Assembly (NCBI GenBank): GCA_030141605.1
Contig: JAQGDQ010000249.1
Location: forward strand, 122,510 to 186,509
Source of the DNA: Tubiluchus corallicola
Taxonomy: Eukaryota > Animalia > Priapulida
Direction of reading: 5' to 3'
Length of the DNA stretch: 64,000 nucleotides
The position numbers were made by a program, and so were the translations under genes. Positions 1 to 55,711 of this stretch are shown one piece after another. The notes beneath the pieces are model-generated. The model saw only the letters and a program-made list of their open reading frames with translations. It was not told the DNA's origin and searched no databases. How positions within the stretch are numbered: the first letter of the stretch is position 1; each line of letters starts with the position of its first letter.

Positions 1-1439
1 CCATGTTTGTTAAACCATGTCGTGTGCAGCGTTCTACTAAGGTAACGCAAGAAATTTAGCATTTTGGCTGAAACTAGCAGTTAAAATCGTAATGTGGTGA
101 ACGCTTTCACGTAAGACTTCTCGCTTGGGAGGCTGTTCCAGACAGGCGAGGTCATTTCAATCTGATTCTTAAAAACTGTGCCGGGAAGTTAAACGATGTT
201 TATTAAAGGGATAAATGAAAGGAAAAAATCCGCTCCAGGAGACCAGTTCGAGATACGCAAGAATTCGAGTTATATACCAGTTCAAATTATACATAGTTTA
301 CCATATGAGATAAACAACTGACATTTACAATGAGATATCTCATCTACTCGCATATGGACCATACTCCAATCTATTTCATCATTTACTTTCCGTTTAGCTT
401 ATCCACTCTTAGCTGACAGCTAATTATCATGTACAAATCCATCAGCAATTAGGTCAGTAGTAACCACAGACGACGAATATGTTCTTGCTCTAATGAGCAG
501 GTTGATAAATACCTGCTAAGCACTAGTTAGTACAGCTCAATACAGGCTAAGGAACAATATTTCAAATAAGCCTGAGCAAGTAAGAAAAGTACTCTTGGTA
601 GACACAACTCACTAGGCTGAGGAAGTACGTTCTATATAAGCCTGGAGTTAGATACATTGCCTAGATGCACAGATTTAATGTGCGAGTGTGAAGTTGTTGT
701 GCAACCTTTAATAGGTTAGCAGACAACAAGCTGCACTCTTGCTAGGCTGAGGAACTAAGTTCTATGTTGGCTTACTGACTTTCACGGCGATGTCACTCTG
801 GTTTGAAGATCAATGTTAAATTGTTGACATTCAACATTGAACAAGTAAAAGAATACTATCGCAGAGTATGGCCTGGTCTTGTTTGCTGCAGAACACAATA
901 TCATATTTTGCTACACAAAGTTGTTGTAAAATAAATAATTTATGACGTATAATGACTTTTCCCACTTTTGGTACACCACGTTACATCTTGATATACCTAT
1001 TACATAAAGCACATGCTATAAAGTGCTGCCACCTTTAGGAAACTATTACAAGAACATGTTACACCAATGTCGTCCCATATAATGGGAAACTTTATGCTCA
1101 ACAAGGAATATAAACGTGCGAAAGTAGGTGTTTTGAAAAGTAAAGTTTGTCTAATCTGACTTTTCCAGATGCTTTTCACGGTCGAAGAAACATTTCACAA
1201 TACACAAGGTTATTTGAAGGAAACAGCCTGAAATTGTGGATTAAATGCATCAAATCAGTGACAGTTTATGCATTATCAAAATGCTGAACTGCATGGCACA
1301 CTTCTTTTTTAGCTGCACATGTACTAGCATCATTAGATAAGAAAACTGTTTGAGATCAGCCAACAAGCAGCAGTTATTGATGACCTTGAAAAGGGTAAAT
1401 GATTGGAGATTGAAGCGTTAGTACAATATCTGTTGCTTT

Positions 1440-2822
1440 TCACATAAACTTCTTGTAAGCAAGCTCGCTAACAAATGTAAACAATGCTACACCGATTCCG
1501 GACATCAACACCCAAAAAACTACGTTAAGTTGCTCCACATTAATTGATAATGTGCCTACATGCTGAACAGGTGAGTCTAAACATTTTTCCGAAGGTTGCA
1601 GTAACTGTTGTAGCAGTTCATCCACAAGACCGTGTTCTTTTAATGTAGCAAGAGCAGAATTTAGGGCTTCTGTGTAGTTACTATTCGGTGGTACAACTAA
1701 TGCTGATGCTGATGAAAATCTCAAAAATGGGGAAACAGAAAATCTGCATTTTCCGTGTAATTCATAATCCTTAATTAAGGAGAGCTTTGCATAAGTCTCT
1801 TCCGCGAAGAAGGTGTATTTTCCAGTAGCTGTCAGTTCCAATGCCATTTCGTCATTGTCGGCAGGTACATTATGATCCGTTTTCATTCTCTGCCACAGTT
1901 GTCTAAATTCCGGTCTGTGTCTCATTTGCATGGTGCCGCTCAACTGACCTAGTGTAACAGGAACTATGTCGCTGTCTATCAACTCTTGCAACGTAGTGAA
2001 TGAATAAACTTGCTTGCTTACAAATAATTTACTAACCAGTGTGCCCGTGTACATGGCTGTGATGATGCAAGCAAAAATCCACCACCATCCGATAAGCATC
2101 CTAGCGGATAAACATTGTGGTAAATATGTTCCACCTTGTTGGAGGTACGACGATAGTGTGAACCGAGTAAAGTACGCCTTACTTTCATTCTTTATCACTG
2201 GTTTTTCCAGTTTTCTTTGGCAGTTACTGCATTTCGTAATCCCTTCCTCGTTGTACGGCAGGTTTTTGCTGTAGTCAATATAGTAAAGTATTGTACCCAC
2301 TACTATGCCATATAATAACAGAAGCAGCCACACGGGTGTGGTGAATGGGTCTATTATATTAAAACCTTGTAATTGATGTCTTTTTGTGATAAATACATGA
2401 GAACTATAAGCAAGTGGGTGAAGAAACGTCATACTTTTTGTTCTTTCTGGTAACATGGTGACTAAGCCCAAAAACAAGTCGAATTCTCCTGTATCAATTA
2501 TATTTTCTGGAGTTTCAAAACGTTTGATGTATGTCACCTTGTACGTGAAGTTTGCTGCTTGGCTGAGGATCGGAAGCAGCTGATCTAGATATGGCTTCAT
2601 AGGATCGTCTCTCCATGCTCCAACTCGAAGCATCTCTCCATGGAGTGAATAACCCTGTGTTCTGAAGTTTTTACCATAAAACGCATTTAAATTGTTCTGG
2701 TTATTCAAACTGTTGCAATTTTCAGTCCTTGTTTTAGTTTTACACGACATTCCTGCGGTCCAAAAACATTCAAGGAAATAACAAACGATGGCACAAGTTT
2801 TGAGAAATGATGCAAGCGACAT
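1440..2822 (-). CDS. Ionotropic receptor (IR)/iGluR-like channel subunit, copy 1 (460 aa, single exon, no ATD)
   Basis: Signal-peptide-like N-terminus; S1 motif GEFDLFLGLVTMLPERTKSMTFLHP (cf. iGluR D-LA-APLTIT--RE-VIDFSKPF); M1 DPFTTPVW; pore loop FTLSSYLQQGG; M3 PQCLSARMLIGWWW...MYTGTLVSKL (SYTANLAAF position); S2 end LNSALATLKEHGLVDEL; terminal TM helix. ATG at 2822 chosen by homology with the other copies; the ORF-track start is an upstream GTG. Confidence 0.92.
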   Translation of the reverse strand: MSLASFLKTCAIVCYFLECFWTAGMSCKTKTRTENCNSLNNQNNLNAFYGKNFRTQGYSLHGEMLRVGAWRDDPMKPYLDQLLPILSQAANFTYKVTYIKRFETPENIIDTGEFDLFLGLVTMLPERTKSMTFLHPLAYSSHVFITKRHQLQGFNIIDPFTTPVWLLLLLYGIVVGTILYYIDYSKNLPYNEEGITKCSNCQRKLEKPVIKNESKAYFTRFTLSSYLQQGGTYLPQCLSARMLIGWWWIFACIITAMYTGTLVSKLFVSKQVYSFTTLQELIDSDIVPVTLGQLSGTMQMRHRPEFRQLWQRMKTDHNVPADNDEMALELTATGKYTFFAEETYAKLSLIKDYELHGKCRFSVSPFLRFSSASALVVPPNSNYTEALNSALATLKEHGLVDELLQQLLQPSEKCLDSPVQHVGTLSINVEQLNVVFWVLMSGIGVALFTFVSELAYKKFM

Positions 2823-2901
2823 TTTGACTTTGAAAGTGTGAATAATAAACTTTAGCTGAATCACATTATACAGTCATAATATGCCCATCCAAGGAGGATG
2901 A

Positions 2902-2934
2902 CGATGAAAATGTTTTCAGCTGACCACTTTTATA
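2902..2934 (-). promoter_or_regulatory. Putative core promoter of IR copy 1 (TATA box plus initiator)
   Basis: Minus-strand TATAAAAG at 2934-2927 and TCAT initiator-like motif with its A at 2905 (29 nt downstream), ~83 nt before the ATG. TATAAAAG also at 19023-19030, 24188-24195, 28128-28135 and 35907-35914. Confidence 0.6.
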
Positions 2935-3296
2935 CTACAATGCCAATGTGTTACATGTACTTTGTCATATATTTGTATTAATCATAATAGTGTGTGCGCT
3001 AATTCATCGGGTGTGAATCTACATGTTAGTTTTGTCTGCCACACCTTTCTGGTGTTTAATTAGGCTTCTCGTCCTGTTGCCACCTGTGTTAACATTACCA
3101 CCTAGCTAATGTTACCTCAACACCTAAAATAATAACATATTAAAAAGCAGAATTCTGCAGAACGAATGCAGAAACCGCACAAGAGCAAACGTACTATACT
3201 TAACCAAGACCACAAGGAGCAAACTGTAAATTAAAAACGAAAAGTAACACGTGATTAGTGTCTCCTACTTTGATCAAGTCCACCTTGAGAATGAAG

Positions 3297-3332
3297 GATT
3301 AGATTTGATTAGATTAGATTAGATTAGATTAG
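3297..3332 (+). repeat. (GATTA)n microsatellite
   Basis: About 7 units, one imperfect. Confidence 0.9.
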
Positions 3333-4124
3333 AAAGAACAAAAATGCAAAAGTGTAGGACGAAGAAGAATAAAATAGAATAGATAAAAATGCAATAAGAG
3401 GGGAAACGGGAAGGGAAGAGAGGAGTTGAATCAGATTTTGCATCATTTGTGTAATTAACGTCTGCGTCCATTAATAAACGAAGCCACTCACATTTCACCA
3501 GAGTCAAAATCATGTTTAGATCTTATCATCACAAATATTCCAAACTGGTTTACTGGGACGTTTGTACAGACTGCAACTGCTGATGCATGCAGACACTGTC
3601 CTATATTGAGCCATATGAAATTTATATATGTATTAAGTAAAAAGGTATGTGAGAAAAGTTTAGAATTACGAAAAAAAATTTAATCAATTATCAAATGTCT
3701 TCTGGATGCTTTAATAACTGTCAGTATAAACCAAACATACAAGTTAATTATTGATGCATGTACAAACTGTGTTGTGGATCTATCCCAAATCAAACAGCAA
3801 TGGTTCATCCTGGAAACGATCCTTGGATGAATCCCAACATAAGAACACAAAAGCTTCGTCGCAACAGGTTATATAAATAAATCTAAGGAAAACTCCTAAC
3901 ACTCCACATTGGGATCAAAGCTGTAAGAAATGTCAGGTCAGGATGTGGAATTAACAGACGCAGAATCACCTTTTTTGGTATTTTCAAAAATTTTAATTTT
4001 TAATTTTTACAATTTTTTTTTAATTTTCACTAACACGGGACCCTATAGGAGTAAAGTTTCAAACAAGATCTCCTTTGAAATCGCCAAGTGGATTCACTCT
4101 AAACAAATCATGGATCATCCTAAG

Positions 4125-4750
4125 AATATTAGAATAGAACAGAAATTTATTTTTTTACATGAATGTGGATCAAAACTGCATATAATACAATATTTCCACG
4201 ATGGTCCATGCGTGATTAGCACTTTAAATATATAATTTCAAAAAGTGAAATTGAACAAATAAAAATTACGCATTAATAGCACATATTAAATAAAATAAAC
4301 ATTTAATTAAATCCCTAAGGATCAAGAGTTAGGAATTTTAAATTGTTCATAAGTTTCAAAAAACAAGTCAAGTAAGAGTCATAAAGTTAAAATTCATAAA
4401 ATTCATAAAGAATAATTGAAAAATGAAAAATTGAAAGATTGAAAAACAGTTAAAAATTATTTACTAAATGTAACAAAACTAGATTAGGGGTAAAACAACA
4501 TTTTAGACTAAAAATACTACGAAGTAAAAGTACTAATAAAGGTTATACCCAATTAAGAAAGAATTAAATGTTTAAAATTATCATTGCTAAACAGTAATTA
4601 AGAACAAAACTATATAAAAATCAAAATTAAGGTGATTAGCGATTAAAATCGGAATGATAAAATCTAAAAGTTGCTAAGATTTCAAAAATGAGACAACAGA
4701 TTAAAATATAAATTAATTTAAAATAGCATTAAGCAATGCTTTCTTTAGTT
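4125..4750 (-). repeat. Very AT-rich segment resembling a retroelement 3' tail, present in spacers 1-9
   Basis: On the minus strand it is T-rich and ends AATAAATTTCTGTTCTATTCTAATATTCT (poly(A) signal plus short TTCTA-type tail); homologous in each internal spacer. Family not identifiable. Confidence 0.35.
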
Positions 4751-5383
4751 TAGTATTTGGGTCATCCATCATAGCTGCAATTTATTATAATACAAAATGT
4801 ATATGGCAAAATCTCATCAAGTCTACGTCAGGTATTGTAATCTGAGTAGCACGGTTAATAGAATTCGGCAATAATAATATTATGACATACATTAAACCAT
4901 GTTTGCTAAGCCACGTCGTGTGCAGCGTTCTACTAAGGTAACACAAGCAATTTAGCATTTTCACTGAAACTAGCAGTTAAAATCGTAATGTGGTGAACGC
5001 TTTCACGCAAGACTTCTCACTTGGGAGGCTGTTCCAGACAGGCGAGATAATTTCAGTAAAATTCTTAAAAACTGTACCAGGAATTTTGTTCAAGTTATGC
5101 GAATCTGAGTTACACGATGTTTATTAAAAGAAAAAATGAAAGGAAAATCCGCTCCATGAGGCCAGTTCAAGATACGCAAGAATTCGAGTTCAAGTTATAC
5201 ATAGTTTACCGTATGAGATAAACAACTGACTTTTACAATGAGATATCTCATCTACTCACATATGGAACACACTCCAGTCAATTTCATCATTTAGTTTGAA
5301 TTTAGCATATTCACTCTTAGCTGATAGACGATGATCATGTACAAATCATTCAGCAATGAGGTCAGCACATAAACTATTGATTT

Positions 5384-6766
5384 TCACATAAACATCTTGT
5401 AAGCAAGCTCACTAATAAATGTAAACAATGCTACACCGATTCCAGACATCAACACCCAAACAACTACATTAAGTTGCTCCACATTAATTGATAACGTGCC
5501 TACATGCTGAATAGGGGGGTCTAAACACTTTTCCAAAGGCTGCAGTAACTGTTGTAGCAGTTTGTCCACAAGACCGTGTTCTTTTAATATAGCAAGAGCA
5601 AAATTTAGGACTTCAGTATAGTTACTTTTCTTTGGTACAACTAATGCTAATGGTGTCGAAATACTTAAAGATGAAGCAATGGAAAATCTGCATTTTCCGT
5701 GTAATTCATAATCCTTAATTAAGTAGATCTTTGCATAAGTCTTTTCGTTGAAGAATGTGTATTTTCCAGTAGATGTCAGCTCTAATGCCGTCTCTGCACT
5801 GTCGGCAGGTACATTAGGATCCATTTTCATTCTCTGCCACAGTTGTCTAAATTCAGGCCTGTTTTTCATTTGCATGGTGCCACTGAACTGACCTAGTGTA
5901 ACAGGAACTATGTCGCTGTCTATCAACTCTTGCAACGTAGAGAATGGATAAACTTGCTTGCTTACAAATAATTTACTAACCAGTGTGCCCGTGTACATGG
6001 CTGTGATGATGCAAGCAAAAATCCACCACCATCCAATAAGCATTCTAGCGGATAAACATTGTGGTAAATATGTTCCACCTTGTTGGAGGTACGACGATAG
6101 TGTGAACCGAGTAAAGTACGCCTTACTTTCATTCTTTATCACTGGTTTTTCCAGTTTTCTTTGACAATTACTGCATTTTATAATCTCTTCCTTGTTGTAT
6201 GGCAGGTTTTTGCTGTAGTCAATATAGTAGAGTATTGTACCCACAACTATGCCATATAATACCACAAGAAGCCACACAGGTGTGGAGAATGGATCTATTA
6301 TACTAAAACCTTGTAACTGGTGTCTTTTTGTGATAAATACATAAGAATTGTAAGCAAGTGGGTGAAGAAACGTCATACTTTTTGTTCTTTCTGGTAACAT
6401 TGTGACTAAGCCCAATAACAAGTCGAATTCTCCTGTATCAATTATATTTTCTGGAGTTTCAAAACGTTTGATGTACGTCACCTTGTACGTAAAGTTTGCT
6501 GCTTGGCTGAGCATCATAAGCAGTTGATCTAGATATGGGTTCATCTGATGGTCTCTCCATGCTCCAACTCGAAGCATCTCTCCATGGAGTGAATAACCCT
6601 GTGTTCTGAAGTTTTTACCATAAAGCACATCTAAATTGAACTGGTTATACAGTCTGTTGCAATTTTCAGTCCTTGGTTTAGTCTTACACAACGTTCCTTT
6701 GATGCAAAAACATTCAAGGAAATAAAAAACAATGGCACACGTTTTGAGAAATGATGCAAATGACAT
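5384..6766 (-). CDS. IR/iGluR-like subunit, copy 2 (460 aa)
   Basis: Uninterrupted 1383-nt ORF, co-linear with copy 1, same S1/M1/pore/M3/S2/M4 motifs. Confidence 0.92.
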   Translation of the reverse strand: MSFASFLKTCAIVFYFLECFCIKGTLCKTKPRTENCNRLYNQFNLDVLYGKNFRTQGYSLHGEMLRVGAWRDHQMNPYLDQLLMMLSQAANFTYKVTYIKRFETPENIIDTGEFDLLLGLVTMLPERTKSMTFLHPLAYNSYVFITKRHQLQGFSIIDPFSTPVWLLVVLYGIVVGTILYYIDYSKNLPYNKEEIIKCSNCQRKLEKPVIKNESKAYFTRFTLSSYLQQGGTYLPQCLSARMLIGWWWIFACIITAMYTGTLVSKLFVSKQVYPFSTLQELIDSDIVPVTLGQFSGTMQMKNRPEFRQLWQRMKMDPNVPADSAETALELTSTGKYTFFNEKTYAKIYLIKDYELHGKCRFSIASSLSISTPLALVVPKKSNYTEVLNFALAILKEHGLVDKLLQQLLQPLEKCLDPPIQHVGTLSINVEQLNVVVWVLMSGIGVALFTFISELAYKMFM

Positions 6767-9524
6767 TTTTTGCTTTGTAAAATCGAATCATGAGCGTTAG
6801 CTGATTCACGTTATACAGTCATAATATGGCTATGCAGCGAAGATGAAAATGTTTTCAGCTAACCACTTATACTACAATGCCAATGTGTTGTGGTCGAGTA
6901 CTTTGTAAATATATTTGCATTAATCGTAATTGTCTGTACGCTAATTGACAGGAGCCCATTCTGCATGTTTTTTTCCTGTCAAACTGTCTAGTGTTCAATT
7001 AGGCTTCTTCTGTTGCCTGCTGAAGTTGATGTTACCTCAACACCTAAACTAACAGCATATTGAAAAGCAGAATGCTGCAGAACATGCACTTTCGAAAACG
7101 TTATTGGCTATGTATTTGTTTGCTAGGTATCAAAAGATTTGGCTTTTGTATGCGGCACTGGCGCTAGCGAATGTGGAAACAACACAAGAGCAAACATAAA
7201 ACACTTAACACTATCAGAGAGGTGCAAACTGCAAATTAGATTAGAAAGAACAAAAAGGCAACAGTATAAAAAGAAGTAGAATAAAATAGAATAGATAAAA
7301 ATGCAATAGGAGGGGAAACGGGAGAGGAAGAAAAGAGTTGAATCAGATTTTCTATCATTTACGTAATTAATGTCTGCATCAGTTAATAAACAAAACCACT
7401 CACATTTCACCAGAGTCAAAATCATGTTTAGATCTTATCATTACAAATATTCCAAACTGGTTTACTGGGACGTTTGTACAGACAGCGACTGCTGATGCAT
7501 GCAGACACTGTCCTATATTGAGCCATATGAGATTTATATATGTATTAAGTAAAAAGGTATGTGAGAAAAGTTTAGAAGTATCAACTTCATATTTTTCCTA
7601 ATCAATTATCAAATGTCATCTGGATGCTTTAATAACTTTCAATGTAAACCAAACATGCAAGTTAATTATTGATGCATGTACAAACTGTGTTGTGGATCTA
7701 TCCCAAATCAAACAGTAATGATTCATCCAGGAAATGATCCTTGAATGAATCCCAACATAAGAACACAAAAGCATCATCGCGACAGGTTATATAATAAATC
7801 TAAGGAAAAATCCTAACACTCTACATTGGGATCAAAGTTGTAAGAAATGTCAGGTCAGGATGTGGATTTAACAGACACAGAATCATCTTTCTACGGATTT
7901 TCAAAATTTTGATTTCTTAAATTTTACGCATTTTTTTAAAATTTTCACTAATATGGGGCCCTATAGGAGAAAAAGTATCAAACAACATCTCCTTTGAAAT
8001 CGCCAAGTGGATTCACTCAAAACGAATCACGGATCACCCTAAGAACAGAGTAGAATAAAACAGAAATTTATTTTTTACATGGATTTGAATCAGAATTGCA
8101 TATAATACAATATTTCCAGGATGGCTCACGCATGATTATCACTTTAAATAGATAATTTCAAATAAGTGAAATTAAACAAATAAAAATTACACATTAATAG
8201 CATACATTAAGTTAAATGAGCATTTTAATTAAAACCTTAAGCATCAAGAATTAGGAATTTTAAATTGTTAATAAGTTTCATAAAATAAGTCTAATAAGAG
8301 TCATAAAGTTAAAATTCATAAAATTAATAAATTATAATTGAAAAATGAAAAATTTAAAGATTAAAGAACAGTTAAAAATTATTTACTAAATATAACAGAA
8401 CTAGATTAGGGGTAAAACAACATTTTAGACTAAAAGTACTAAGAAGTAAAAGTACTGATAAATGTCATACACAGTTAAGAAAAATTAAGTTGATTAAAGA
8501 TTAAAATCAGAATGATAAAATCTAAAAGTTGCCAAGATTTCAAAAATGACACAACAGATTAAAATATAATTTAATTTAAAATAGAATTAAGCAATGCTTC
8601 CTTTAACTGTTTTTCTGATAAACCATATAAAAGTTGTTAAATGATTTCCAACATTTTTGAGATTTGTATTTTCTATGATTTTTTCAATTTTTGCTATTTC
8701 TTCCCTTTGTTTAGTATTTGGGTCATCCGTCATAGCTGCATTTTATTATAATACAAAATGTATATGACAGAGTTTAAGCAAACCACATTATTAATATGTT
8801 GCCAGTAAGTCATTCATTTGAAAATAATTTGTATTGCTCACTTTGATATTAAATAATTAAGAGGCGTATATATTTCCAAGTTTTCTGACACCAGGCCCAG
8901 GGCTTTATATAGGTTAGGGCCTCACCAACTCTAAATCAGGAACCAGACCTACAGTCACCATGCCTACATCATGTACTGTAGACTGAAGAGCATGGTTAAT
9001 GGAATTCGGCAATAATAATATTGTGATCTACGTTTTACCATGTTCGTTAAGCCATGTCGTGTGCAGCGTTCTACTAAGGTAACACAAGCAATTTAGCATT
9101 TTCACTGAAACTAGCAGTTAAAATCGTAATGTGGTGAACGCTTTCACGTAAGACTTCTTGCTTGGGAGGCTGTTCCAGACAGGCGAGATAATTTCAGTAC
9201 ATTTCTTAAAAACTGTACCGGGAATTTGGTTCAAGTTACGCGATAATCTGAGTTACACGATGTTTATTAAAAGGAAAAATCTGTTCCACAAGATCTGTTT
9301 AAGATATGCAAGAATTCAAATTATACCAGTTCAAGTTATACATAGTTTACCGTATCAGATAAACAACTGACTTTTACAATGAGATATCTTATCTACTCGC
9401 ATATGAAACATACTCCAGTCAATTTCATCATTTAGTTTGAATTTAGCATATTCACTCTTAGCTGATAGACGATTATCATGTACAAATCCGTCAGCAATGA
9501 GCTCAGCACATAAACTATTGCTTT

Positions 9525-10907
9525 TCACATAAATTTCTTGTAAGCAAGCTCGCTAATAAATGTAAACAATGCTACACAGATTCCAAATATCAACACCCAA
9601 AAAACTACATTAAGTTGCTTCACATTAATTGATAACGTGCCTACATGCTGAACAGGTGAGTCTAAACACTTTGCCGATGGTTGCAGTAACTGTTGTAGCA
9701 GTTTGTCCACAAGACCGTGTTCCTTTAATGTAGCAAAAGCAAAATTTAGGACTTCTGTGTAGTTACTGTTCTTTGGTACAACTAATGCTGATGGTAACAA
9801 AAATCTCAAAAATGGAGAAACAGAAAATCTACATTTTTCATATAATTCATAATCCTTAATTAAGAAGAACTTTGCATAAGTCCCTATTGTAAACAAGGTG
9901 TATTTTCCAGTAGATGTCAGCTCTAATGCCATCTCTGCACTGTCGGCAGGTATGTTAGGATCCGTTTTCATTCTCTGCCACAGTTGTCTAAATTCCGGTC
10001 TGTTTTTCATTTGCAAGGTGGAGCTGTGCCGACCTAGTGTAACAGGGATTATGTCGCTGTCTTTCAACTCTTGCAATGTAGTGAATGGATAAACTTGCTT
10101 GCTTACAAATAATTTACTAACCAGTGTGCCCGTGTACATGGCCGTGATGATGCAAGCAAAAATCCACCACCATCCGATAAGCATCCTAGCGGATAAACAT
10201 TGTGGTAAATATGTTCCACCTTGTTGGAGGTACGACGATAGTGTGAACCGAGTAAAGTACGCCTTGCTTTCATTCTTTATCACAGGTTTTTCCAGTTTTC
10301 TTTGGCAGTTGCTGCATTTTATAATCCCTTCCTTGTTGTATGGCAGGTTTTTGCTGTAGTCAATATAGTAGAGTATTGTACCCGCTACTACGCCATATAA
10401 TACCAGAAGCAGCCACACGAGTGTGGTGAATGGGTCTATTATACTAAAACCTTGTAATTGATGTCTTTTTGTGATAAATACATGAGAATTATAAACAAAT
10501 GGGTGAAGAAACGTCATACTTTTTGCTCTTTCTGGTAACATGGTGACTAAGCCCAAAACCAAGTCGAATTCTCCTGTATCAATTGTATTTTCTAGAGTTT
10601 CCGAACGTTTCATGTATGTCACCTTGTACGTGAAGTTTGCTGCTTGGCTGAGCATCGTGAGCAGTTGATCTAGATATGGCTTCATAACATCTTCTCTCCA
10701 TGCTCCCACTCGAAGCAACTCTCCGTGGAGTGAATAACCCTGTGTTCTGGAGTTTTTACCATAAAACGCATTTAAATTGTACTGGTTATACAAGCTGTTA
10801 CAATTTTCAGTCCTTGTTTTAGTTTTACACAACATTCCTTTGATGCAAAAACATTCAAGAAAATAAAAAACGATGGCACAAGTTTTGAGAAATGATGCAA
10901 GTGACAT
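9525..10907 (-). CDS. IR/iGluR-like subunit, copy 3 (460 aa)
   Basis: 1383-nt ORF with the same motifs; S2 variant LFTIGT. Confidence 0.92.
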   Translation of the reverse strand: MSLASFLKTCAIVFYFLECFCIKGMLCKTKTRTENCNSLYNQYNLNAFYGKNSRTQGYSLHGELLRVGAWREDVMKPYLDQLLTMLSQAANFTYKVTYMKRSETLENTIDTGEFDLVLGLVTMLPERAKSMTFLHPFVYNSHVFITKRHQLQGFSIIDPFTTLVWLLLVLYGVVAGTILYYIDYSKNLPYNKEGIIKCSNCQRKLEKPVIKNESKAYFTRFTLSSYLQQGGTYLPQCLSARMLIGWWWIFACIITAMYTGTLVSKLFVSKQVYPFTTLQELKDSDIIPVTLGRHSSTLQMKNRPEFRQLWQRMKTDPNIPADSAEMALELTSTGKYTLFTIGTYAKFFLIKDYELYEKCRFSVSPFLRFLLPSALVVPKNSNYTEVLNFAFATLKEHGLVDKLLQQLLQPSAKCLDSPVQHVGTLSINVKQLNVVFWVLIFGICVALFTFISELAYKKFM

Positions 10908-13873
10908 TTTTGCTTTGTAGGTTTGAATAATAGACTTAGCTGATTCACGTTATACAGTCATAATATGCCTATCCAGGGAGGATGACGATGAAAATGTTTT
11001 CAGCTGACCACTTATTCTACAATACTAATGTTATGGTCGATTGCTTTGTAAATATATTTAATACTGGTGTTTAATAAGGCTTCTCTTGTTGCCAACTGTG
11101 TTAATATTATCACATAGCTAATGTTACATCAACACCTAACCTAATAATATATTTCAAAGCAGAAATTGGAGAGGAGAGGAAATGGGAGGAGAAGAGAAGA
11201 ATTGAATCAGAATTTGTATCATTTACGTAATTAAAGCCTGCATCCATTAATAAACGAAGCCACTCACATTTCAGCAGAGTCAAAATCATGTTTAGATCTT
11301 ATCATTACAAATATTCCAAACTGGTTTGCTGGGACGTTTGTACAGACAGTGACTGCTGATGCATGCAGACACTGTCCTATATTGAGCCATATGAAATTTA
11401 TACATGTATTAAGTAAAAAGGTATGTGAGAAAAGTTTAGAATTATGAAAATGTTGATACTTTATATTTTTTCGAATCAATTATCAAGTTTCATCTGGATG
11501 CTTTAATAACTCTCAATGTAAACCAAACGTGCAAGTTAATTATTGATGCACTTACAAAGTGTGTTGTGGATCTATCCCAAATCAAACATAACAGAAATGA
11601 TCCTTGGATGAATCCCAACATAAGAACACAAAAGCTTCGTCACGACAGGTTATATAATAAATCTAAGGAAAACTCCTAACACTCCACATTGGGATCAAAG
11701 TTGTAAGAAATGTCAGGTCAGGATGTGGAATTAACAGACACAAAATCATCTTTTTGCGGATTTTCAAATTTTTAATTCCTTAAATTTTATGCATTTTTTT
11801 AAATTTTCGCTAACACAGGACCCTATAGGAGAAAAAGTTTCAAGCAACATCTCCTTTTAAATCGCCAAGTGGATTCACACAAAACAAATCATGGATCATC
11901 CTAAGAACAGAATAAAATAGAATTTATTTTTTATATGGATGTGGATCAAAATTGAATATAATACAATATTTCCACGATGGTTCATGCATGATTAGCACTT
12001 TAAATAGCTAATTTCAAATAAGTGAAATTAAACAAATAAAAATTACACATTAATAGCATACATTAAATTAAATTAACATTTTAATTAAAACCCCAACCAT
12101 CAAGAATTAGGAATTTTAAATTGTTAATAAGTTTCAGAAAATAAGTCTAATAAGAGTCATAAAGTTAAAATTAAAATAATTCTTAAAGTATAATTGAAAA
12201 ATGAAAAATTTAAAGATTAAAAAACAGTTAAAAATTATTTACTAAATGTAACATAACTACATTAGGGGTAAAACAACATTTTAGACTAAAATACTAAGAA
12301 GTAAAAGTAAAAGTACTGATAAAAGTCATACACAATTAAGAAAAATTAAATGTTTATAATTATCATTGCTAAACAGTATATAAGAACAAAACTACATAAG
12401 GTCAAAATTAATGTGATTAAAGATTAAAATCAGAATCATAAAATCTAAAAGTTGTTAAGATTTCAAAAATGAGACAACAGTTTAAAATATAATTTAATTT
12501 GAAATAGTGTTAAGCAATGCTTTCTTTAACTGTTTTTCTGATAAACCATATAAAACTTGCTAAATGATTTCCAAAATTTTCGAGATTTGTATTTTCTATG
12601 ATTTTTTCAATTTTTGCTATTTCTTCCCTTTGTTTAGTATTTGGGTCGTCCGTCATAGGTGCATTTTATTATAACACAAAATGGATATGACAGAATTTAA
12701 GCCAACCAAATTATTAATATGTTGCCAGTAAGTCATTCATTTGAAAATAATTTGTATTGCTCACTTTGATATTAAATAATTAAGAGGCGTATATATTTCC
12801 AAGTTTTCTGAGACCAGGCCCAGGGCTTCACATAGTCTAGGGCCTCACCAACTCTAAATCAGGAACCAGACCTACAGTCTACATGTCTGCATCATGCATT
12901 GTATTCATGGCTGAAGACACATTCACAATACAAGATTATTTAAAGGAAACAGCTCAATACAGGCTAAGGAACAATATTTCAAATAAGCCTGAGCAAGTAA
13001 GAAAAGTACTCATGGTAGACACAACTCACTAGGCTGAGGAAGTACGTTCTATATGACCCTGGAGTTACATACATTGCCTAGATGCACAGATTTAGTGTGT
13101 GAGTGTGAAGTTGTTGTGCAACCTTTAATAGGTTAACAGACAACAAGCTGCACTCTTGCTAGGCTGAGGAACTAAGTTCTATGTTGGCTTACTGACTCTC
13201 ACGGGGATGTCACACTGGTTTGAGCATCATGTTAAATTGTTGACATTCAACATTGAACAAGTGAAAGAATACTATAGCAGAGTATGGCCTGGTCTTGTTT
13301 GCTGCAGAACACAATATCATATTTTGCTACACAAAGTTGTTGTAAAGGTGTTATGTAAAATAAATGACTTATGACGTATTATGACTTATCCCACTTTTAG
13401 TACACCCATGTTACATTTTGATATACCTATTACGTAAAGCACATGTTATAAAGTGCTGCCACCTTTAGGAAACTATTACAAGAACATGTTACACCAATGT
13501 CGTTCGACCATGTAATGGGAAAACTTTATGCTAATCAAGGAATATAAAAGTGTGAAAGTAGGTGTTTTGAAAGATGAAGTTTGTCTAATCTGACTTTTCC
13601 AGATGCTTTTCATGGCTGAAGAAACATTTCACAATACACAAGGTTATTTGAAGGAAACAGCCTGAAATTTTTGGATTAAATGCGTCAAATCTGTGACAAT
13701 TTATGATTATCACAATGCTGAACTGCATGGCACACTTCATTTTTAGCTGCACATGTACTGCCATCATTTGATAAGAAAACTGTTTGAAATCAGCCAACAA
13801 GCAGCAGTTATTGATGACCTTGAAAAGGGTAAATGATTGGAGACTAAAGGGTTAGTACAATATCTATTGATTT

Positions 13874-15256
13874 TCACGTAAATTTCTTGTAAGCAAGCTC
13901 GCTAATAAATGTAAACAATGCTACACTGATTCCAGATATCAACACCCAAAAAACTACATTAAGTTGCTCCACATTAATTGATAATGTGCCTACATGCTGA
14001 ACAGGTGAATCTAAACACTTTGCCGATGGTTGCAGTAACTGTTGTAGCAGTTTGTCCACAAGACCGTGTTCTTTTAATGTAGCAAGAGCAAAATTTAGGA
14101 CTTCTGTGTAGTTACTGTTCTTTGGTACAACTAATGCTGATGGTAACGAAAATCTCAAAAATGGAGAAACAGAAAATCTACATTTTTCATATAATTCATA
14201 ATCCTTAATTAAGAAGAACTTTGCATAAGTCCCTATTGTAAACAAGGTGTATTTTCCAGTAGATGTCAGCTCTAATGCCATCTCTGCACTGTCAGCAGGT
14301 ACATTAGGATCCGTTTTCATTCTCTGCCACAGTTGCCTAAATTCCGGTCTGTTTTTCATTTGCAAGGTGGGGCTGTGGTGACCTACTGTAACAGGGATTA
14401 TGTTGCTGTCTTTCAACTCTTGCAATGTAGTGAATGGATAAACTTGCTTGCTTACAAATAATTTACTAACCAGTGTGCCTGTGTACATGGCTGTGATGAT
14501 GCAAGCAAAAATCCACCACCATCCGATAAGCATCCTAGCGGATAAACGTTTTAGTAAATATGTTCCACCTTGTTGGAGGTATGACGACAGTGTGAACCGA
14601 GTAAAGTATGCCTTACTTTCATTCTTTATCACTGGTTTTTCCAGTTTTCTTTGGCAATTACTGCATTTTATGATCTCTTCCTCGTTGTATGGCAGGTTTT
14701 TGCTGTAGTCAATATAGTAAAGTATTGTACCCGCTACTACGCCATATAATACCAGAAGCAGCCACACGAGTGTGGTGAATGGATCTATTATACTGAAACC
14801 TTGTAATTGATGTCTTTTTGTGATAAATACATGAGAATTATAAACAAATGGGTGAAGAAACGTCATGCTTTTTGCTCTTTCTGGTAACATTGTGACTAAT
14901 CCCAAAAACAAGTCGAATTCTCCTGTATCAATTGTATTTTCTAGAGTTCCTGAACGTTTAATGTATGTCACCTTGTACGTGAAGTTTGCTGCTTGGCTGA
15001 GTATCGTAAGCAGTTGGTCTAGATATGGCTTCATAACATCTTCTCTCCATGCTCCCACTCGAAGCAACTCTCCGTGGAGTGAATAACCCTGTGTTCTGGA
15101 GTTTTTACCATAAAACGCATTTAAATTGTACTGGTTATACAAGCTGTTACAATTTTCAGTCCTGATTTTAGTTTTACACGACATTCCAGCGGTCCAAAAA
15201 CATTCAAGGAAATAAAAAGTGACGGCACAAGTTTTGAGAAATGATGCAAACGACAT
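13874..15256 (-). CDS. IR/iGluR-like subunit, copy 4 (460 aa)
   Basis: 1383 nt from the homologous ATG at 15256 (ORF-track start is an upstream GTG); same motifs. Confidence 0.92.
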   Translation of the reverse strand: MSFASFLKTCAVTFYFLECFWTAGMSCKTKIRTENCNSLYNQYNLNAFYGKNSRTQGYSLHGELLRVGAWREDVMKPYLDQLLTILSQAANFTYKVTYIKRSGTLENTIDTGEFDLFLGLVTMLPERAKSMTFLHPFVYNSHVFITKRHQLQGFSIIDPFTTLVWLLLVLYGVVAGTILYYIDYSKNLPYNEEEIIKCSNCQRKLEKPVIKNESKAYFTRFTLSSYLQQGGTYLLKRLSARMLIGWWWIFACIITAMYTGTLVSKLFVSKQVYPFTTLQELKDSNIIPVTVGHHSPTLQMKNRPEFRQLWQRMKTDPNVPADSAEMALELTSTGKYTLFTIGTYAKFFLIKDYELYEKCRFSVSPFLRFSLPSALVVPKNSNYTEVLNFALATLKEHGLVDKLLQQLLQPSAKCLDSPVQHVGTLSINVEQLNVVFWVLISGISVALFTFISELAYKKFT

Positions 15257-17536
15257 TTTGACTTTGAAAGTCTGAATAATAAACTTTAGCTGATTCACAT
15301 TATACAGTCATAATATGCCTATCCAGGGAGGATGACGATGAAAATGTTTTCAGCTGACCACTTATTCTACAATACTAATGTTATGGTCGATTGCTTTGTA
15401 AATATATTTAATACTGGTGTTTAATAAGGCTTCTCTTGTTGCCAACTGTGTTAATATTATCACATAGCTAATGTTACATCAACACCTAACCTAATAATAT
15501 ATTTCAAAGCAGAAATAGGAGAGGAAATGGGAGGAGAAGAGAAGAATTGAATCAGAATTTGTATCATTTACGTAATTAAAGCCTGCATCCATTAATAAAC
15601 GAAGCCACTCACATTTCACCAGAGTCAAAATCATGTTTAGATCTTATCATTACAAATATTCCAAACTGGTTTACTGGGACGTTTGTACAGACAGCGACTG
15701 CTGATGCATGCAGACACTGTCCTATATTGAGCCATATGAAATTTATATATATATATATTAAGTAAAAAGGTAAGTGAGAAAAGTTTAGAATTATGAAAAT
15801 GTTGATACTTTATATTTTTTCGAATCAATTATCAAGTTTCATCTGGATGCTTTAATAACTCTCAATGTAAACCAAACGTGCAAGTTAATTATTGATGCAC
15901 TTACAAAGTGTGTTGTGGATCTATCCCAAATCAAACATAACAGAAATGATCCTTGGATGAATCCCAACATAAGAACACAAAAGCATCATCGCAACAGGTT
16001 ATATAATAAATCTAAGGAAAACTCCTAACACTCCACATTGGGATCAAAGTTGTAAGAAATGTCAGGTCAGGATGTGGAATTAACAGACACAAAATCATCT
16101 TTTTGCGGATTTTCAAATTTTTAATTCCTTAAATTTTATGCATTTTTTTAAATTTTCGCTAACACAGGACCCTATAGGAGAAAAAGTTTCAAGCAACATC
16201 TCCTTTTAAATCGCCAAGTGGATTCACACAAAACAAATCATGGATCATCCTAAGAACAGAATAAAATAGAATTTATTTTTTATATGGATGTGGATCAAAA
16301 TTGAATATAATACAATATTTCCACGATGGTTCATGCATGATTAGCACTTTAAATAGCTAATTTCAAATAAGTGAAATTAAACAAATAAAAATTACACATT
16401 AATAGCATACATTAAATTAAATTAACATTTTAATTAAAACCCCAACCATCAAGAATTAGGAATTTTAAATTGTTAATAAGTTTCATAAAATAAGTCTAAT
16501 AAGAGTCATAAAGTTAAAATTAAAATAATTCTTAAAGTATAATTGAAAAAAGAAAAATTTAAAGATTAAAAAACAGTTAAGAATTATTTACTAAATGTAG
16601 CACAACTAGATTAGGGGTAAAACAACATTTTAGACTAAAAGTACTAAGAAGTAAAAGTAAAAGTACTGAGAAAAGTCACAACCGATTAAGAAAACTTAAA
16701 TGTTTATAATTATCATTGCTAAACAGTAATTAAGAACAAAACTACATAAGGTCAAAATTAAGGTGATTAAAGATTAAAATCAGAATCATAAAATCTAAAA
16801 GTTGCTAAGATTTCAAAAATGAGATAACAGTTTAAAATATAATTTAATTTAAAATAGTATTAAGCAATGCTTTCTTTAACTGTTTTTCTGATAAACTATA
16901 TAAAAGTTGTTAAATGATTTCCAAAATTTTCGAGATTTGTATTTTCTATGATTTTTTCAATTTTTGCTATTTCTTCCCTTTGTTTAGTATTTGGGTCGTC
17001 CGTCATAGCTGCATTTTATTATAACACAAAATGTATATGACAGAGTTTAAGCAAACCACATTATTAATATGTTGCCAGTAAGTCATTCATTTGAAAATAA
17101 TTTGTGTTGCTCACTTTGATATTAAATAACTAAGAGGCGTATATATTTCCAAGTTTTCTGAGACCAGGCCCAGGGCTTCACATAGTCTAGGGCCTCACCA
17201 AGTCTAAATCAGGAACCAGACCTACAGTCTACATGTCTACATTGTGCACCGTATTCATGGCTGAAGACACATTCACAATACAAGATTATTTAAAGGAAAC
17301 AGTCTGAAAAACACATTGTGGATTAAATGCGTCAAATCAGTTTTTTATGTCAAATCAGTGACAGTTTTTATGTTATGATGCTGAACTGCATGGCACACTT
17401 CATTTTTAGCTGCACATGTACTACCATCATTAGATAAGAAAACAGTTTAAGGTCAGCCAACAAGCAGCAGTTATTGATGACCTTGAAAAGGGTAAATGAT
17501 TGGACATTAGAGGGTTAGTACAATATCTGTTGATTT

Positions 17537-18919
17537 TCACGTAAATTTCTTGTAAGCAAGCTCACTAATAAATGTAAACAATGCTACACCGATTCCACAT
17601 ATCAACACCCAAAAAATCACATTAAGTTGCTCCACATTAATTGATAACGTGCCTACATGCTGAACAGGTGAGTCTAAACACTTTTCCGAAGGCTGCAGTA
17701 ACTGTTGTAGCAGTTCATCCACAAGACCGTGTTCTTTTAATGTAGCAAGAGCAAAATTTAGGACTTCAGTATAGTTACTTTTCTTTGGTACAACTAATGC
17801 TGATGGTGTCGAAAAACTTAAAGACAAAGCAATGGAAAATCTGCATTTTCCGCGTAATTCATAATCCTTTACTAAGCGGAGCTTTGCATAAATCCGTTCT
17901 GTAAAGAATGTGTATTTTCCAGTAGCTGTCAGTTCTAATGCCATCTCTGCACTGTCAACAGGTACATTAGGATCCAGTGTCATTCTCTGCCACAGTTGTC
18001 TAAATTCAGGTCTGTTTTTCATTTGCAGTGTGGGGCTGTAGTGACCTATTGTAACAGGAATTATATCGCTGTCTATCAACTCTTGCAACGTAGAAAATGG
18101 ATAAACTTGCTTGCTTACAAATAGTTTACTAACCAGTGTGCCCATGTACATGGCTGTGATGATGCAAGCAAAAATCCACCACCATCCTATAAGCATCCTA
18201 GCAGATAAACATTGTGGTAAATATGTTCCACCTTGTTGGAGGTATGACGACAGTGTGAACTGAATAAAGTACGCCTTACTTTCATTCTTTATCACTGGTT
18301 TTTCCAGTTTTCTTTGGCAGTTGCTGCATTTTATAATCTCTTCCTCGTTGTACGGCAGGTTTTTGCTGTAGTCAATATAGTAAAGTATTGTACCCACTAC
18401 TATGCCATATAATACCAGAAGCAGCCACACGAGTGTGGTGAATGGGTCTATTATACTAAAACCTTGTAATTGATGTCTTTTTGTGATAAATACACGAGAA
18501 CTATAAGCAAGTGGGTGAAGAAACGTCATGCTTTTTGCTCTTTCTGGTAACATTGTGACTAAGCCCAAAAACAAGTCGAATTCTCCTGTATCAATTGCAT
18601 TTTTTAGAGTTTGCAAATGTTTGATGTATGTCACCTTGTACGTAAAGTTTGTTGCTTGGCTGAGCATCGTAAGCAGTTGATCTAGATATGGCTTCGTCGG
18701 ATCGTCTCTCCATGCTCCAACTCGAAGCATCTCTCCGTGGAGTGAATAACCCTGTGTTTTGAAGTTTTTACTATAAAACGCATTTAAATTGTACTGGTTG
18801 TACGAGCTGTTGCAATTTTCAGTCCTGATTTTAGTCTTACACGACATTCCAGCGGTCCAAAAACATTCAAGGAAATAAAAAGTGACGGCACAAGTTTTGA
18901 GAAATGATGCAAACGACAT
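17537..18919 (-). CDS. IR/iGluR-like subunit, copy 5 (460 aa)
   Basis: 1383-nt ORF with the same motifs; M3 variant MYMGTLVSK. Confidence 0.92.
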   Translation of the reverse strand: MSFASFLKTCAVTFYFLECFWTAGMSCKTKIRTENCNSSYNQYNLNAFYSKNFKTQGYSLHGEMLRVGAWRDDPTKPYLDQLLTMLSQATNFTYKVTYIKHLQTLKNAIDTGEFDLFLGLVTMLPERAKSMTFLHPLAYSSRVFITKRHQLQGFSIIDPFTTLVWLLLVLYGIVVGTILYYIDYSKNLPYNEEEIIKCSNCQRKLEKPVIKNESKAYFIQFTLSSYLQQGGTYLPQCLSARMLIGWWWIFACIITAMYMGTLVSKLFVSKQVYPFSTLQELIDSDIIPVTIGHYSPTLQMKNRPEFRQLWQRMTLDPNVPVDSAEMALELTATGKYTFFTERIYAKLRLVKDYELRGKCRFSIALSLSFSTPSALVVPKKSNYTEVLNFALATLKEHGLVDELLQQLLQPSEKCLDSPVQHVGTLSINVEQLNVIFWVLICGIGVALFTFISELAYKKFT

Positions 18920-25001: not shown

Positions 25002-25038
<37 letters not shown>

Positions 25039-51095: not shown

Positions 51096-51193
51096 CCCAA
51101 AAAGAACGGCTGTCGGAAACAATCCGGCGCTCCAATTACGGCAGCTATGTGAGCGGAAGTGAACATCGGTTCAGCACGGCACATATCACAGGC
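51096..51193 (-). CDS. PLA2G6: PLA2G6-like coding exon 3 (98 nt)
   Basis: ataatttcag|GCC TGT GAT...TTG GG|gttga; ACDMCRAEPMFTSAHIAAVIGAPDCFRQPFFLG (cf. recalled human [24 protein letters not shown]). Phase 0 in, phase 2 out. Confidence 0.85.
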
Positions 51194-52283: not shown

Positions 52284-52404
52284 CTTTTGCAAAATGACTA
52301 AGTCGAAGACGGGTTTGCTGGTCGTGTCAAAAATCGGCTGCAGACGATTGAAGTACAGCTGGAAAGACTGGTCTGCTTCTGTTTCGTTGAAGGTCCTTAA
52401 CAAA
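52284..52404 (-). CDS. PLA2G6: PLA2G6-like coding exon 2 (121 nt)
   Basis: gttcttctag|T TTG TTA AGG...CAA AAG|gtgaa; LLRTFNETEADQSFQLYFNRLQPIFDTTSKPVFDLVILQK (cf. recalled human [25 protein letters not shown]...VLQ). Phase 2 in, phase 0 out. Confidence 0.87.
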
Positions 52405-54135: not shown

Positions 54136-54586
54136 TCAAACAGACTGCAGAAAAACGTTCTAGCGGCGCCTGGTGGGACTCTCGTAAAATATTATTTCTC
54201 ACAGCAGGAGAGACTTTGATGACAAAGAATTTCTACCTTTGTAACCAATCTTACAGCACAGAATGTAAACACATGCTCTAACAAGATTCCAGTCTGAGCA
54301 AATGTTTGCATTCCATGTATAAACAGCAATAAACTAAACCCTGATTTAATGTTTTAAAAAAACAGCAAGCTACAACTGCATACAGTATTAACTGGCTTTA
54401 AGGAAACAATCCAGTAAGATGAACAAATTGATAAAATTCATCAACTCGGCTTCATTAGATGAGTTTGAAGCCAATTTAAATGCTGAATGGGTTGGTATTC
54501 CAACCTTGCAAGTTTGTGTTTCGGGATGGTGAAAATCCCAGTTTATACTTAACGGCAACTAATAGCGCTTATCCGGTTTTACAAGA

Positions 54587-54730
54587 GGTGGTATAACTCA
54601 ACGCTACTGTCCTCGCTTCACACTCGAGAGGTCGTGGGTTCAACTCCCTATCGGGTCATACCAAAGACTTGAAAAATGGTAATGCTGGTTCTTCGACCTA
54701 CCGCGCAGGTTAATCGAAGTATCATGTGGG
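54587..54730 (+). mobile_element. tRNA-derived SINE (head and core)
   Basis: A-box-like GGTGGTATAACTCAA and B-box GGTCGTGGGTTCAACTCCC, followed by GGGTCATACCAAAGACTTGAAAAATGGTA, a core I recall from MetaSINE-type elements. 3' end not defined. Confidence 0.65.
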
Positions 54731-55496
54731 TCATAATAATCAGGAGACACCTTGGAGTTAAGTCCTGATTTGCTTAAGGCGTTGTTCCCGGACGGAAATT
54801 ATTAAGTAACTTTAGGAAACGAAGCATAAGCTCATACTGCTTAAAGGACATGAAAATGGCCAACCAAAGTAAGACTCAGAAAATTTGCAATAAAAAATTA
54901 TATCACCTAAGTATAACCTTAAGCGAATAAAGTACTCATGTTTTCGCATTTACTCCAATTTTTGTAAAATATTTCAACCGCTGCAGTAAACGTTGGCGCA
55001 GACAGGTTTCAATTGAAAAGCCAGCATGTGACTGATCACGTGGCATGACATCACTCGAACACACTCGCAGTGAGTTCTAATCACGTGTACTATAAAGTTA
55101 GTACACTTTGTGAGAATCAACAGTCAGAATCACTTTGTGTCGTGATTCTGTGACGCCATCTAATATGGCACCGCCGTGACAGTCTCACGGGAGTATTTAA
55201 AATGAAAACAAACAGGAGTATGATAACGCGAGTATGATAAACGCTTAAGATTGCCTCTAACCGTTATAATTCTTTAGCAAAAATTTTCTGACACTTGCTT
55301 TAACTAGGCCTTTTCTTGTCCTTTAAAAGGTCAAGTAATTTCTGCAAACACAGCCTGTACTTAACACGTCTTACAGACATTACAGAAACGCAAGACATTT
55401 CGGCGGCGTTTAGAAATTCAATAAAAATCATAATCATTATGAGAAGAACTTTTGACTCTCAAATTTTGTAGGAAATCTGTTTTGTAGAAAGCTTAC

Positions 55497-55711
55497 CTGA
55501 AAAATTTCAGTGGAGGCGTGGTATTCTGAACGACGATATCGAACTGTCTGGTAGCAACAAAGTAATAGCCAACAAAAAGCCCCTTTTGCCAAACAGTTTT
55601 CTCCTTCAAGTAATGATTACGATCTCTTTCCAGCACTGCGTACGGAGAGGAAGGCTCCGATTCATTCCCAAAAAAACTTTGAATGGCTTTCGTTATTCCC
55701 AGGAAACTCAT
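55497..55711 (-). CDS. PLA2G6: PLA2G6-like first coding exon (CDS part 215 nt)
   Basis: MSFLGITKAIQSFFG...SPYAVLE...RQFDIVVQN...KFF(S) parallels recalled human MQFFGRLVN...NPFRVKE...TWDCVLVN...GFR. Donor AG|gtaagc at 55496; acceptor ttttctgtag at 55781 implies a non-coding exon upstream. Confidence 0.85.

What the first reader, a model, noticed from the sequence alone, without database searches (positions are those of the whole stretch)
1..55711. Cluster of at least 10 ionotropic-receptor genes apparently nested, same strand, inside one giant intron of PLA2G6 (iPLA2-beta)
Seen: six phase-compatible GT-AG exons (55711 to 41586) give one open reading frame for the N-terminal ~300 aa of iPLA2-beta. 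The last ends ...HWAKNRE|gtaac, 764 bp from the array edge, and I found no further ankyrin or patatin exon in the remaining 41.5 kb. Known: iPLA2-beta continues with more ankyrin repeats and a patatin domain; nested genes are more often antisense to the host. Inference: the receptor family expanded inside a >41 kb intron (the other introns are 1-3.3 kb). Host transcription must then pass ten same-strand promoters and poly(A) signals (minus-strand AATAAA near 200, 5121, 9263, 21323, 26372, 30528, 38374). That predicts transcriptional interference or a truncated ankyrin-only host isoform; such isoforms are reported to inhibit mammalian iPLA2-beta.
Basis: partly seen in the sequence, partly recalled or inferred. 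Interest (0 to 1): 0.85.

Follow-up and report, generated by a model that had tools for sequence, protein, structure and literature searches.

The report
Receptor array likely inside phospholipase intron
Ten head-to-tail copies of a gene for a likely smell/taste-type ion-channel receptor start right behind the sixth coding exon of the lipid-enzyme gene PLA2G6 on the same strand, so they likely fill one intron of more than 41 kb; this is an unusually large case of a known arrangement, and the far end of the host gene has not been seen.

Summary
Six GT-AG exons (55711-41586) give a 301-codon open frame. Exons 3 and 6 match iPLA2-beta (PDB 6AUN) colinearly. Ten single-coding-exon iGluR/IR-like genes follow on the same strand; nine are intact and one is frameshifted. 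The array runs off the window. No ankyrin or patatin exon was found in 218 downstream ORFs, and the 762 bases before the array are mostly repeats. Exon 6 shows as one contig at single-copy depth in the likely source sample. A contig from a second sample bridges the array edge.

Nesting is therefore likely (about 0.75) but unproven: no genome, downstream exon or RNA was available. The interference and inhibitory-isoform idea has no support yet. AATAAA occurs at chance frequency (28 versus 29.5 expected), and only five copies have one near the stop codon.

Both parts are known. IRs expand as intronless tandem arrays, and 72.5% of same-strand nested fly genes are single-exon. This scan earlier noted an antisense IR array in an intron in another genome, and a same-strand nested retrogene in this one. 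Verdict: new member of a known kind, notable for size and orientation.

The parts
55497..55711 (-). PLA2G6 coding exon 1 (ATG at 55711); an acceptor-like AG about 70 nt upstream suggests a non-coding first exon further right
   Evidence: no PDB hit on its own
52284..52404 (-). PLA2G6 coding exon 2 (121 nt)
   Evidence: no PDB hit on its own
51096..51193 (-). PLA2G6 coding exon 3 (98 nt; weak donor)
   Evidence: only PDB hit is 6AUN 111-137, E 0.62
48200..48377 (-). PLA2G6 coding exon 4 (178 nt), ankyrin repeats
   Evidence: Pfam Ank_2 E 6.5e-9; generic ankyrin PDB hits, 6AUN among them
44668..44861 (-). PLA2G6 coding exon 5 (194 nt), ankyrin repeats
   Evidence: Pfam Ank_3 E 7.9e-4; generic ankyrin PDB hits, 6AUN not listed
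41586..41682 (-). PLA2G6 coding exon 6 (97 nt), phase-0 donor at 41585
   Evidence: 6AUN 265-299, E 1.1e-5; one contig at depth 149 in run X1
40824..41585 (-). Start of the inferred giant intron: 82 nt of unique sequence, a high-copy MITE-like repeat (about 41010-41503) and a smaller repeat (about 40826-40985)
   Evidence: no ankyrin-like ORF
38636..40018 (-). IR-like gene 1, 460 aa, intact
34425..35807 (-). IR-like gene 2, intact
30790..32172 (-). IR-like gene 3, intact
26646..28028 (-). IR-like gene 4, intact
22704..24084 (-). IR-like gene 5, frameshifted (two 1-nt deletions)
17537..18919 (-). IR-like gene 6, intact
13874..15256 (-). IR-like gene 7, intact
9525..10907 (-). IR-like gene 8, intact
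5384..6766 (-). IR-like gene 9, intact
1440..2822 (-). IR-like gene 10, intact
1..40823 (-). Whole tandem array: units of about 4.2 kb, with a 21.3-kb (five-unit) higher-order repeat (1-12952 matches 21093-34207 at 91.8%); it runs off the left end
40079..40372 (-). Predicted 5'-UTR splice signals of gene 1: two donor-like motifs shared by 10 of 10 copies, and an acceptor-like site 61-63 nt before the ATG in 8 of 10 copies
   Evidence: inferred, no RNA

Best explanation
Ten copies of an IR-type ion-channel receptor gene lie head to tail behind coding exon 6 of PLA2G6 on the same strand, and they likely fill intron 6 of an intact host gene whose remaining exons would lie beyond the left end of the window. 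Shown: the six-exon open frame, the ten genes, purifying selection on them, and the mosaic and higher-order repeat structure. Inferred: a single intron-poor receptor gene with about 800 nt of upstream DNA landed 762 nt behind exon 6, next to transposon-like repeats, and multiplied by unequal crossing-over and gene conversion. Each copy likely has its own promoter and 3' end and would be expressed in sensory cells as a tuning subunit, possibly with an IR25a co-receptor. The ligand is likely a small acid or amino acid, since the Arg, Thr and (in 6 of 9 copies) Glu aligned to GluA2's glutamate contacts are kept. The host is predicted to splice the whole array out. The pairing is most likely an accident of insertion, not a regulatory device.
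For: Host identity and integrity. About 450-500 residues of the host are missing from the window (6AUN is 752 aa), while the donor at 41585 is consensus-like. My recollection, not checked in any call, is that human PLA2G6 has a 97-nt exon ending at the same codon, and that five exon-boundary phases match. Only the next human boundary (c.1077, end of exon 7) was seen in print (PMC4573652, passage). No next exon was found before or inside the array, and all of 1-40823 is repeated array DNA. Exon 6 has one contig version at 94% identity or better in X1, at depth 149. Neighbouring exact-match contigs run 115-156, and the exon-5 contig is 193. This argues against a recent truncated duplicate. The array edge is bridged by an X4 contig from another sample (40741-40891, 1 difference, depth 2.7). 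X1 exact-match contigs cross both ends of the MITE. Receptors: PF00060 E 4e-19. Pairwise dN/dS is 0.25-0.60 in 36 of 36 pairs, and pN/pS is 0.20 in the pore region. The fly gene is single-copy and its loss shortens life (PMC5811537, passages).
Against: No downstream host exon, genome or spliced RNA was seen. No single contig spans the roughly 490-nt MITE between exon 6 and the array, and no clear target-site duplication was found. X1 and X2 may be the sample the window was built from. The one independent bridge is a single low-depth contig. In X2 the summed depth over 41552-41633 is 32-39, against 10-19 for single contigs, and one contig there has a 1-nt deletion in an A-run. This is probably overlapping short contigs, but it is not resolved. 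A surplus of depth in bin 41660-41939 at the 85% threshold could not be assigned. A second copy under 85% identity would be invisible. The Pfam screen missed exon 6 itself. AATAAA is not depleted on the sense strand (28 versus 29.5 +/- 4.3), so there is no sign of purging for read-through.
Confidence: 0.72

Rival explanations
1. The six exons are a 3'-truncated gene, either a partial duplicate or a PLA2G6 broken by a rearrangement at the repeat-rich spot, and the receptor array is simply its downstream neighbour.
For: No 3' exon in 41.5 kb, while the other introns are 1.1-3.3 kb. The array edge lies 3 nt from the end of a small repeat. Exon 6 can read through 25 codons to a stop. There is unassigned surplus depth in X2 and in one bin.
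Against: The frame is intact over six exons. Exon 6 has a single contig version at single-copy depth in X1. X4 shows the covered part of exon 6 (41627-41682) unchanged, with two differences in intron 5.
Confidence: 0.13
2. The assembly joined the PLA2G6 5' half to a receptor array from elsewhere, through the high-copy MITE at about 41010-41503.
For: No contig spans the MITE. Its two flanks show no clean target-site duplication. Arrays with 21-kb higher-order repeats are hard to assemble.
Against: Exact-match X1 and X2 contigs cover 40795-41064, 41274-41429 and 41472-41817. No two array blocks over 2.5 kb are more than 96.4% identical. A repeat under 500 nt would be easy for long reads, though the read type is not on record.
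Confidence: 0.07
3. The nesting is real and functional: the exon-6 donor is spliced to an acceptor in front of a receptor gene, or host transcripts end at a receptor poly(A) site, making an ankyrin-only iPLA2-beta that would inhibit the full enzyme in receptor-expressing cells.
For: Of 64 AG sites between 41545 and 40018, only two have 10 or more of 14 pyrimidines. One of them (40079) is the predicted 5'-UTR acceptor of gene 1 and would add 7 residues and a stop. Human ankyrin-only isoforms may act as dominant negatives (PMC4019866, passage).
Against: No RNA. That acceptor is lost in 2 of 10 copies. In-frame fusion sites occur in only 4 of 10 copies. Acceptor-like and AATAAA counts match shuffles. 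Human ankyrin isoforms are said to arise by alternative splicing further downstream (recalled) and would contain more repeats.
Confidence: 0.08

Closest known systems
Same-strand nested genes of Drosophila melanogaster (Lee and Chang 2013, PMC3814207; passages and section 4 read)
   Same: Nested genes on the host's strand that have a single coding exon. In the fly 28.7% of nested genes are same-strand, 72.5% of those are single-exon, and host and nested expression are uncorrelated.
   Different: Here there are at least ten copies over more than 41 kb, the far host exon is unseen, and the copies carry predicted 5'-UTR splice sites.
Divergent ionotropic receptors in tandem arrays (Drosophila IR94 and IR52 clades, Aedes IR7 clade; Croset et al. 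2010, PMC2924276; passages)
   Same: Species-specific, single-exon, no amino-terminal domain, expanded by non-allelic recombination, with birth and death of copies.
   Different: Shorter (460 aa), much younger (82-97% protein identity, dN/dS about 0.4 against a median of 0.149 across drosophilids), probably not an arthropod. The passages I saw do not mention nesting in an intron.
Mammalian and fly PLA2G6 / iPLA2-beta (PDB 6AUN; fly CG6718, PMC5811537)
   Same: Colinear match of exons 3 and 6 with a 3-residue offset; ankyrin repeats.
   Different: Only residues 1 to about 298 are in the window; the patatin domain was not seen.
Earlier unreviewed notes of this scan: IR array inside a Shisa-like gene intron (e1-9324990) and GPCR array inside a ClC-2 intron (e1-9937406)
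   Same: A receptor tandem array inside one long intron of an unrelated gene.
   Different: Those are antisense to the host and were reported as confirmed nestings; this one is same-strand and open at the far end.

Membership tests
PLA2G6 / iPLA2-beta | N-terminal ankyrin repeats | tested here: met
   Pfam ankyrin hits on exons 4 and 5
PLA2G6 / iPLA2-beta | Specific, colinear similarity to iPLA2-beta over other ankyrin proteins | tested here: met
   6AUN is the best hit for exon 6 (E 1.1e-5) and the only hit for exon 3 (E 0.62). Exons 1 and 2 gave no hit, and exon 5 did not list 6AUN.
PLA2G6 / iPLA2-beta | C-terminal patatin domain with lipase motif | not testable with these tools
   Absent from the window; no genome held
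PLA2G6 / iPLA2-beta | Intron positions shared with the human gene | tested here: inconclusive
   The match rests on recalled human boundaries; searches for them in print found only c.1077
Intron-nested gene cluster | Host exons on both sides of the cluster | not testable with these tools
   Only the 5' side lies in the window
Intron-nested gene cluster | No host exon before or within the cluster | tested here: met
   0 of 218 ORFs with an ankyrin or patatin hit; tblastn with 12 ankyrin proteins found only known exons at E under 0.01; short exons may be missed
Intron-nested gene cluster | Physical continuity of host exon and cluster | tested here: inconclusive
   Array edge bridged in X4 and both MITE ends crossed in X1, but the MITE is not spanned by one contig
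Intron-nested gene cluster | Host mRNA spliced across the cluster | not testable with these tools
   The only candidate RNA run of this species label (X24) did not cover exon 6 or most of exon 5
Divergent ionotropic receptors (IRs) | iGluR-type S1-pore-S2-TM architecture | tested here: met
   PF00060 and PF00497; residues 112-458 align to GluA2, E 2e-19
Divergent ionotropic receptors (IRs) | No amino-terminal domain | tested here: met
   460 aa in total; the GluA2 alignment starts at residue 112, against 470 in the chain
Divergent ionotropic receptors (IRs) | Single coding exon, lineage-specific tandem expansion, purifying selection | tested here: met
   only 2 relatives (70% and 44%) among 3069 candidates
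Divergent ionotropic receptors (IRs) | Phylogenetic placement in the IR25a-derived clade rather than among synaptic iGluRs | not tested
Divergent ionotropic receptors (IRs) | Expression in chemosensory neurons with IR25a | not testable with these tools
   No RNA; IR25a in this genome is known only from an unreviewed note (e1-10583050)

The most novel reading that the evidence does not exclude
The receptor array acts as a set of alternative last exons for the host. In sensory cells the exon-6 donor is captured by the acceptor in front of a receptor gene (first candidate 40079), giving a 308-residue ankyrin-only iPLA2-beta that ends at the receptor's poly(A) site and dampens the full enzyme. A chemoreceptor expansion would then set the lipid-remodelling activity of the neurons that express it.
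Probability: 0.07. Interest if true: 0.65.

Novelty: new member of a known kind. Interest (0 to 1): 0.36.

Why it matters
If the nesting is confirmed, this is a natural test of how a broadly expressed single-copy gene is transcribed and spliced across at least ten same-strand genes with their own predicted splice and poly(A) sites. It would also show that a young chemoreceptor family can expand inside such an intron without visible purging of those signals. It adds a young, selected IR-like expansion in what earlier notes call a priapulid-like animal, a group for which my searches found no IR repertoire paper. It also warns annotators that automatic gene models will probably split PLA2G6 or fuse it to a receptor. 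It does not by itself reveal a new mechanism.

Tried and rejected
No whole genome is held, so the left flank could not be searched. Three attempts to obtain a full-length iPLA2-beta relative failed. An exon-6 query gave 1 candidate and no hit. An exon-1 query against the representatives gave 3 repeat-like hits. A pooled six-exon alignment gave 12 generic ankyrin proteins with no patatin domain. Metagenome scans with the receptor alignment and with exon 6 found nothing. The AlphaFold model of the receptor was unusable (pLDDT 37.7), so no fold search was run. Candidate RNA run X24 gave no cover of exon 6 or of the receptor ORF, which is no evidence either way. Summed contig depth over the array (tens to hundreds of times single-copy, differing about 8-fold between X1 and X4) hints at many more copies but is not a copy number. 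A pre-specified test of nine pocket residues showed no excess variability (p 0.21); the clustering of variable sites at 288-301 and 338-350 (9 of 27, against 25 of 433) was picked after the fact. An ORF with an ankyrin-looking stretch at 7126-7434 had no Pfam hit. The apparent insertion at 21582-22694 is ordinary array spacer. An in-frame ankyrin-receptor fusion was rejected as a conserved feature (sites in 4 of 10 copies). Strand skew (T over A 0.125 in spacers, 0.024 in host introns) was judged uninformative. Paper searches for a chemoreceptor array nested in an intron found no describing paper; the library lacks most subscription journals, and no supplements were read.
Full report
Observation. 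Six minus-strand exons between 55711 and 41586 have canonical splice sites and join into 301 codons without a stop. The donor of exon 5 is at 44667; my first trial boundary was six bases off. Exon 6 matches hamster iPLA2-beta (PDB 6AUN) residues 265-299 at E 1.1e-5, far ahead of the next hit. The only PDB hit of exon 3 is 6AUN 111-137 (weak). Both sit at a 3-residue offset, so the match is colinear. Exons 4 and 5 are ankyrin repeats. Exons 1 and 2 matched nothing. About 450-500 residues of the enzyme, including the patatin domain, are not in the window.

The array. Ten genes start at 40018, 35807, 32172, 28028, 24084, 18919, 15256, 10907, 6766 and 2822. Nine encode 460 residues in one exon; copy 5 has two single-base deletions. 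The two copies scanned carry PF00060, and copy 10 aligns to GluA2 from the first ligand-binding lobe to the last helix, with no amino-terminal domain. Protein identity among intact copies is 82-97%. dN/dS is 0.25-0.60 in all 36 pairs and lowest in the pore region (pN/pS 0.20). The residues aligned to the glutamate-contacting Arg and Thr of GluA2 (labels recalled) are invariant, and the Glu is kept in 6 of 9 copies. Units are about 4.2 kb. Coding, upstream and 3' parts give different groupings. A 13-kb block repeats at an offset of five units. This points to unequal crossing-over and conversion, and suggests that the array continues past position 1. Only two relatives were found, at 70% and 44% identity, both unnamed.

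Is there a next host exon? Array homology stops at 40823. The 762 bases up to exon 6 are mostly a high-copy MITE-like element and a smaller repeat. Of 219 minus-strand ORFs of 30 residues or more outside the receptor frames, 218 were scanned. None hit an ankyrin or patatin family; ten gave weak hits to unrelated families, all below cut-off. Exons 4 and 5 were detected as controls and exon 6 was not, so a short exon could escape. However, everything left of 40823 is repeated DNA, where a host exon would be present many times. tblastn with 12 generic ankyrin proteins found only the known exons at E under 0.01.

Duplicate or misassembly? No genome is held. In run X1, which may be the source sample, exon 6 and its flanks lie on one exact 346-nt contig at depth 149, with no second version at 94% or better. 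Other exact contigs nearby are at 115-156, and the exon-5 contig is at 193. That argues against a recent partial duplicate. A contig from another sample (X4; 151 nt, 1 difference, depth 2.7) bridges the array edge, and X1 contigs cross both MITE ends. Against: no contig spans the MITE, no clear target-site duplication was found, X2 shows unexplained extra depth and a 1-nt deletion contig within exon 6, and an older paralogue under 85% would be unseen. No RNA run covered the host exons.

Mechanism. Most likely one intron-poor receptor gene inserted behind exon 6 and multiplied in place, and the host splices across the whole array (inferred; about 0.72). The receptors likely act as chemosensory tuning subunits for small acids or amino acids (inferred from family knowledge and retained pocket residues). 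AATAAA on the sense strand of the spacers is at chance level (28 against 29.5 +/- 4.3), as are acceptor-like sites (29 against 25.5 +/- 4.9). The units are not independent, so this test is weak. Copies 1, 3, 4, 8 and 9 have AATAAA 257-268 nt after the stop; the other five share a different 3' end, with none within 500 nt. All ten copies share two donor-like motifs upstream of the ATG, and eight share an acceptor-like site, which suggests 5'-UTR introns. In copy 1 that site is one of only two pyrimidine-rich AGs the exon-6 donor would meet before the first ATG, and it would end the host protein after seven more residues. This keeps the truncated-isoform idea alive but unsupported. Human ankyrin-only isoforms are reported as possible dominant negatives (PMC4019866, passage).

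Comparison. In Drosophila 71.3% of nested genes are antisense, and 72.5% of same-strand ones are single-exon (PMC3814207, passages and section 4). Divergent IRs are mostly single-exon and form tandem arrays of up to seven in Aedes (PMC2924276, passages). PMC6307864 (passages) lists the priapulid iGluR classes but not such genes. PMC9298276 was searched for exon boundaries without result. Four searches for a chemoreceptor array inside an intron found no describing paper. Unreviewed notes of this scan report antisense receptor arrays in introns of other genomes, and a same-strand intronless CEP290 in an intron of this genome. They call the animal priapulid-like, which I did not test. IR membership rests on architecture; no tree with named IRs was possible.

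Verdict. A real and accurately described locus. Nesting is likely but open at the far end, and the regulatory consequence is speculative. New member of a known kind, interest 0.36.

Noticed in passing
window 42288-43668 (+), ORF 42423-43526: An intact Tc1/mariner-type transposon in host intron 5: terminal inverted repeats, TA target site, 368-aa ORF with PF16087 and DDE_3, and DD41D spacing by my count (family label rosa/Visitor, recalled). Many runs of other marine organisms hold 0.13-0.18 of the query's words, about this element's share. X1 and X4 also show a 147-nt deletion variant.
   Followed up: partly
window 45301-48138: A 41-bp satellite of about 70 copies fills most of host intron 4.
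   Followed up: no
window 57175-57572 (-): An isolated 400-nt fragment of 28S rRNA upstream of the host start codon (Rfam RF02543).
   Followed up: no
window 1-12952 and 21093-34207: A five-unit (21.3 kb) higher-order repeat in the receptor array, with long exactly identical patches.
   Followed up: partly
window, receptor residues 288-301 and 338-350: Variable sites cluster next to the predicted ligand pocket, and the Glu aligned to GluA2's glutamate contact is Ile in copies 3, 7 and 8; the copies may differ in ligand (post hoc).
   Followed up: partly
window 3' flanks of the ten genes: Two unrelated 3' flank types alternate (copies 1, 3, 4, 8, 9 against 2, 5, 6, 7, 10), and only the first has a nearby AATAAA.
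   Followed up: partly
window 59549-63388: A run of simple and tandem repeats (22, 2, 70, 186 and 15 bp units) and a second copy of the MITE at 63712-64000.
   Followed up: no
window 44666-44836, run X23: A run with the same species label matches exon 5 at only about 90% (17 differences in 171 nt), which suggests a related or cryptic species; the differences were not classified as synonymous or not.
   Followed up: no
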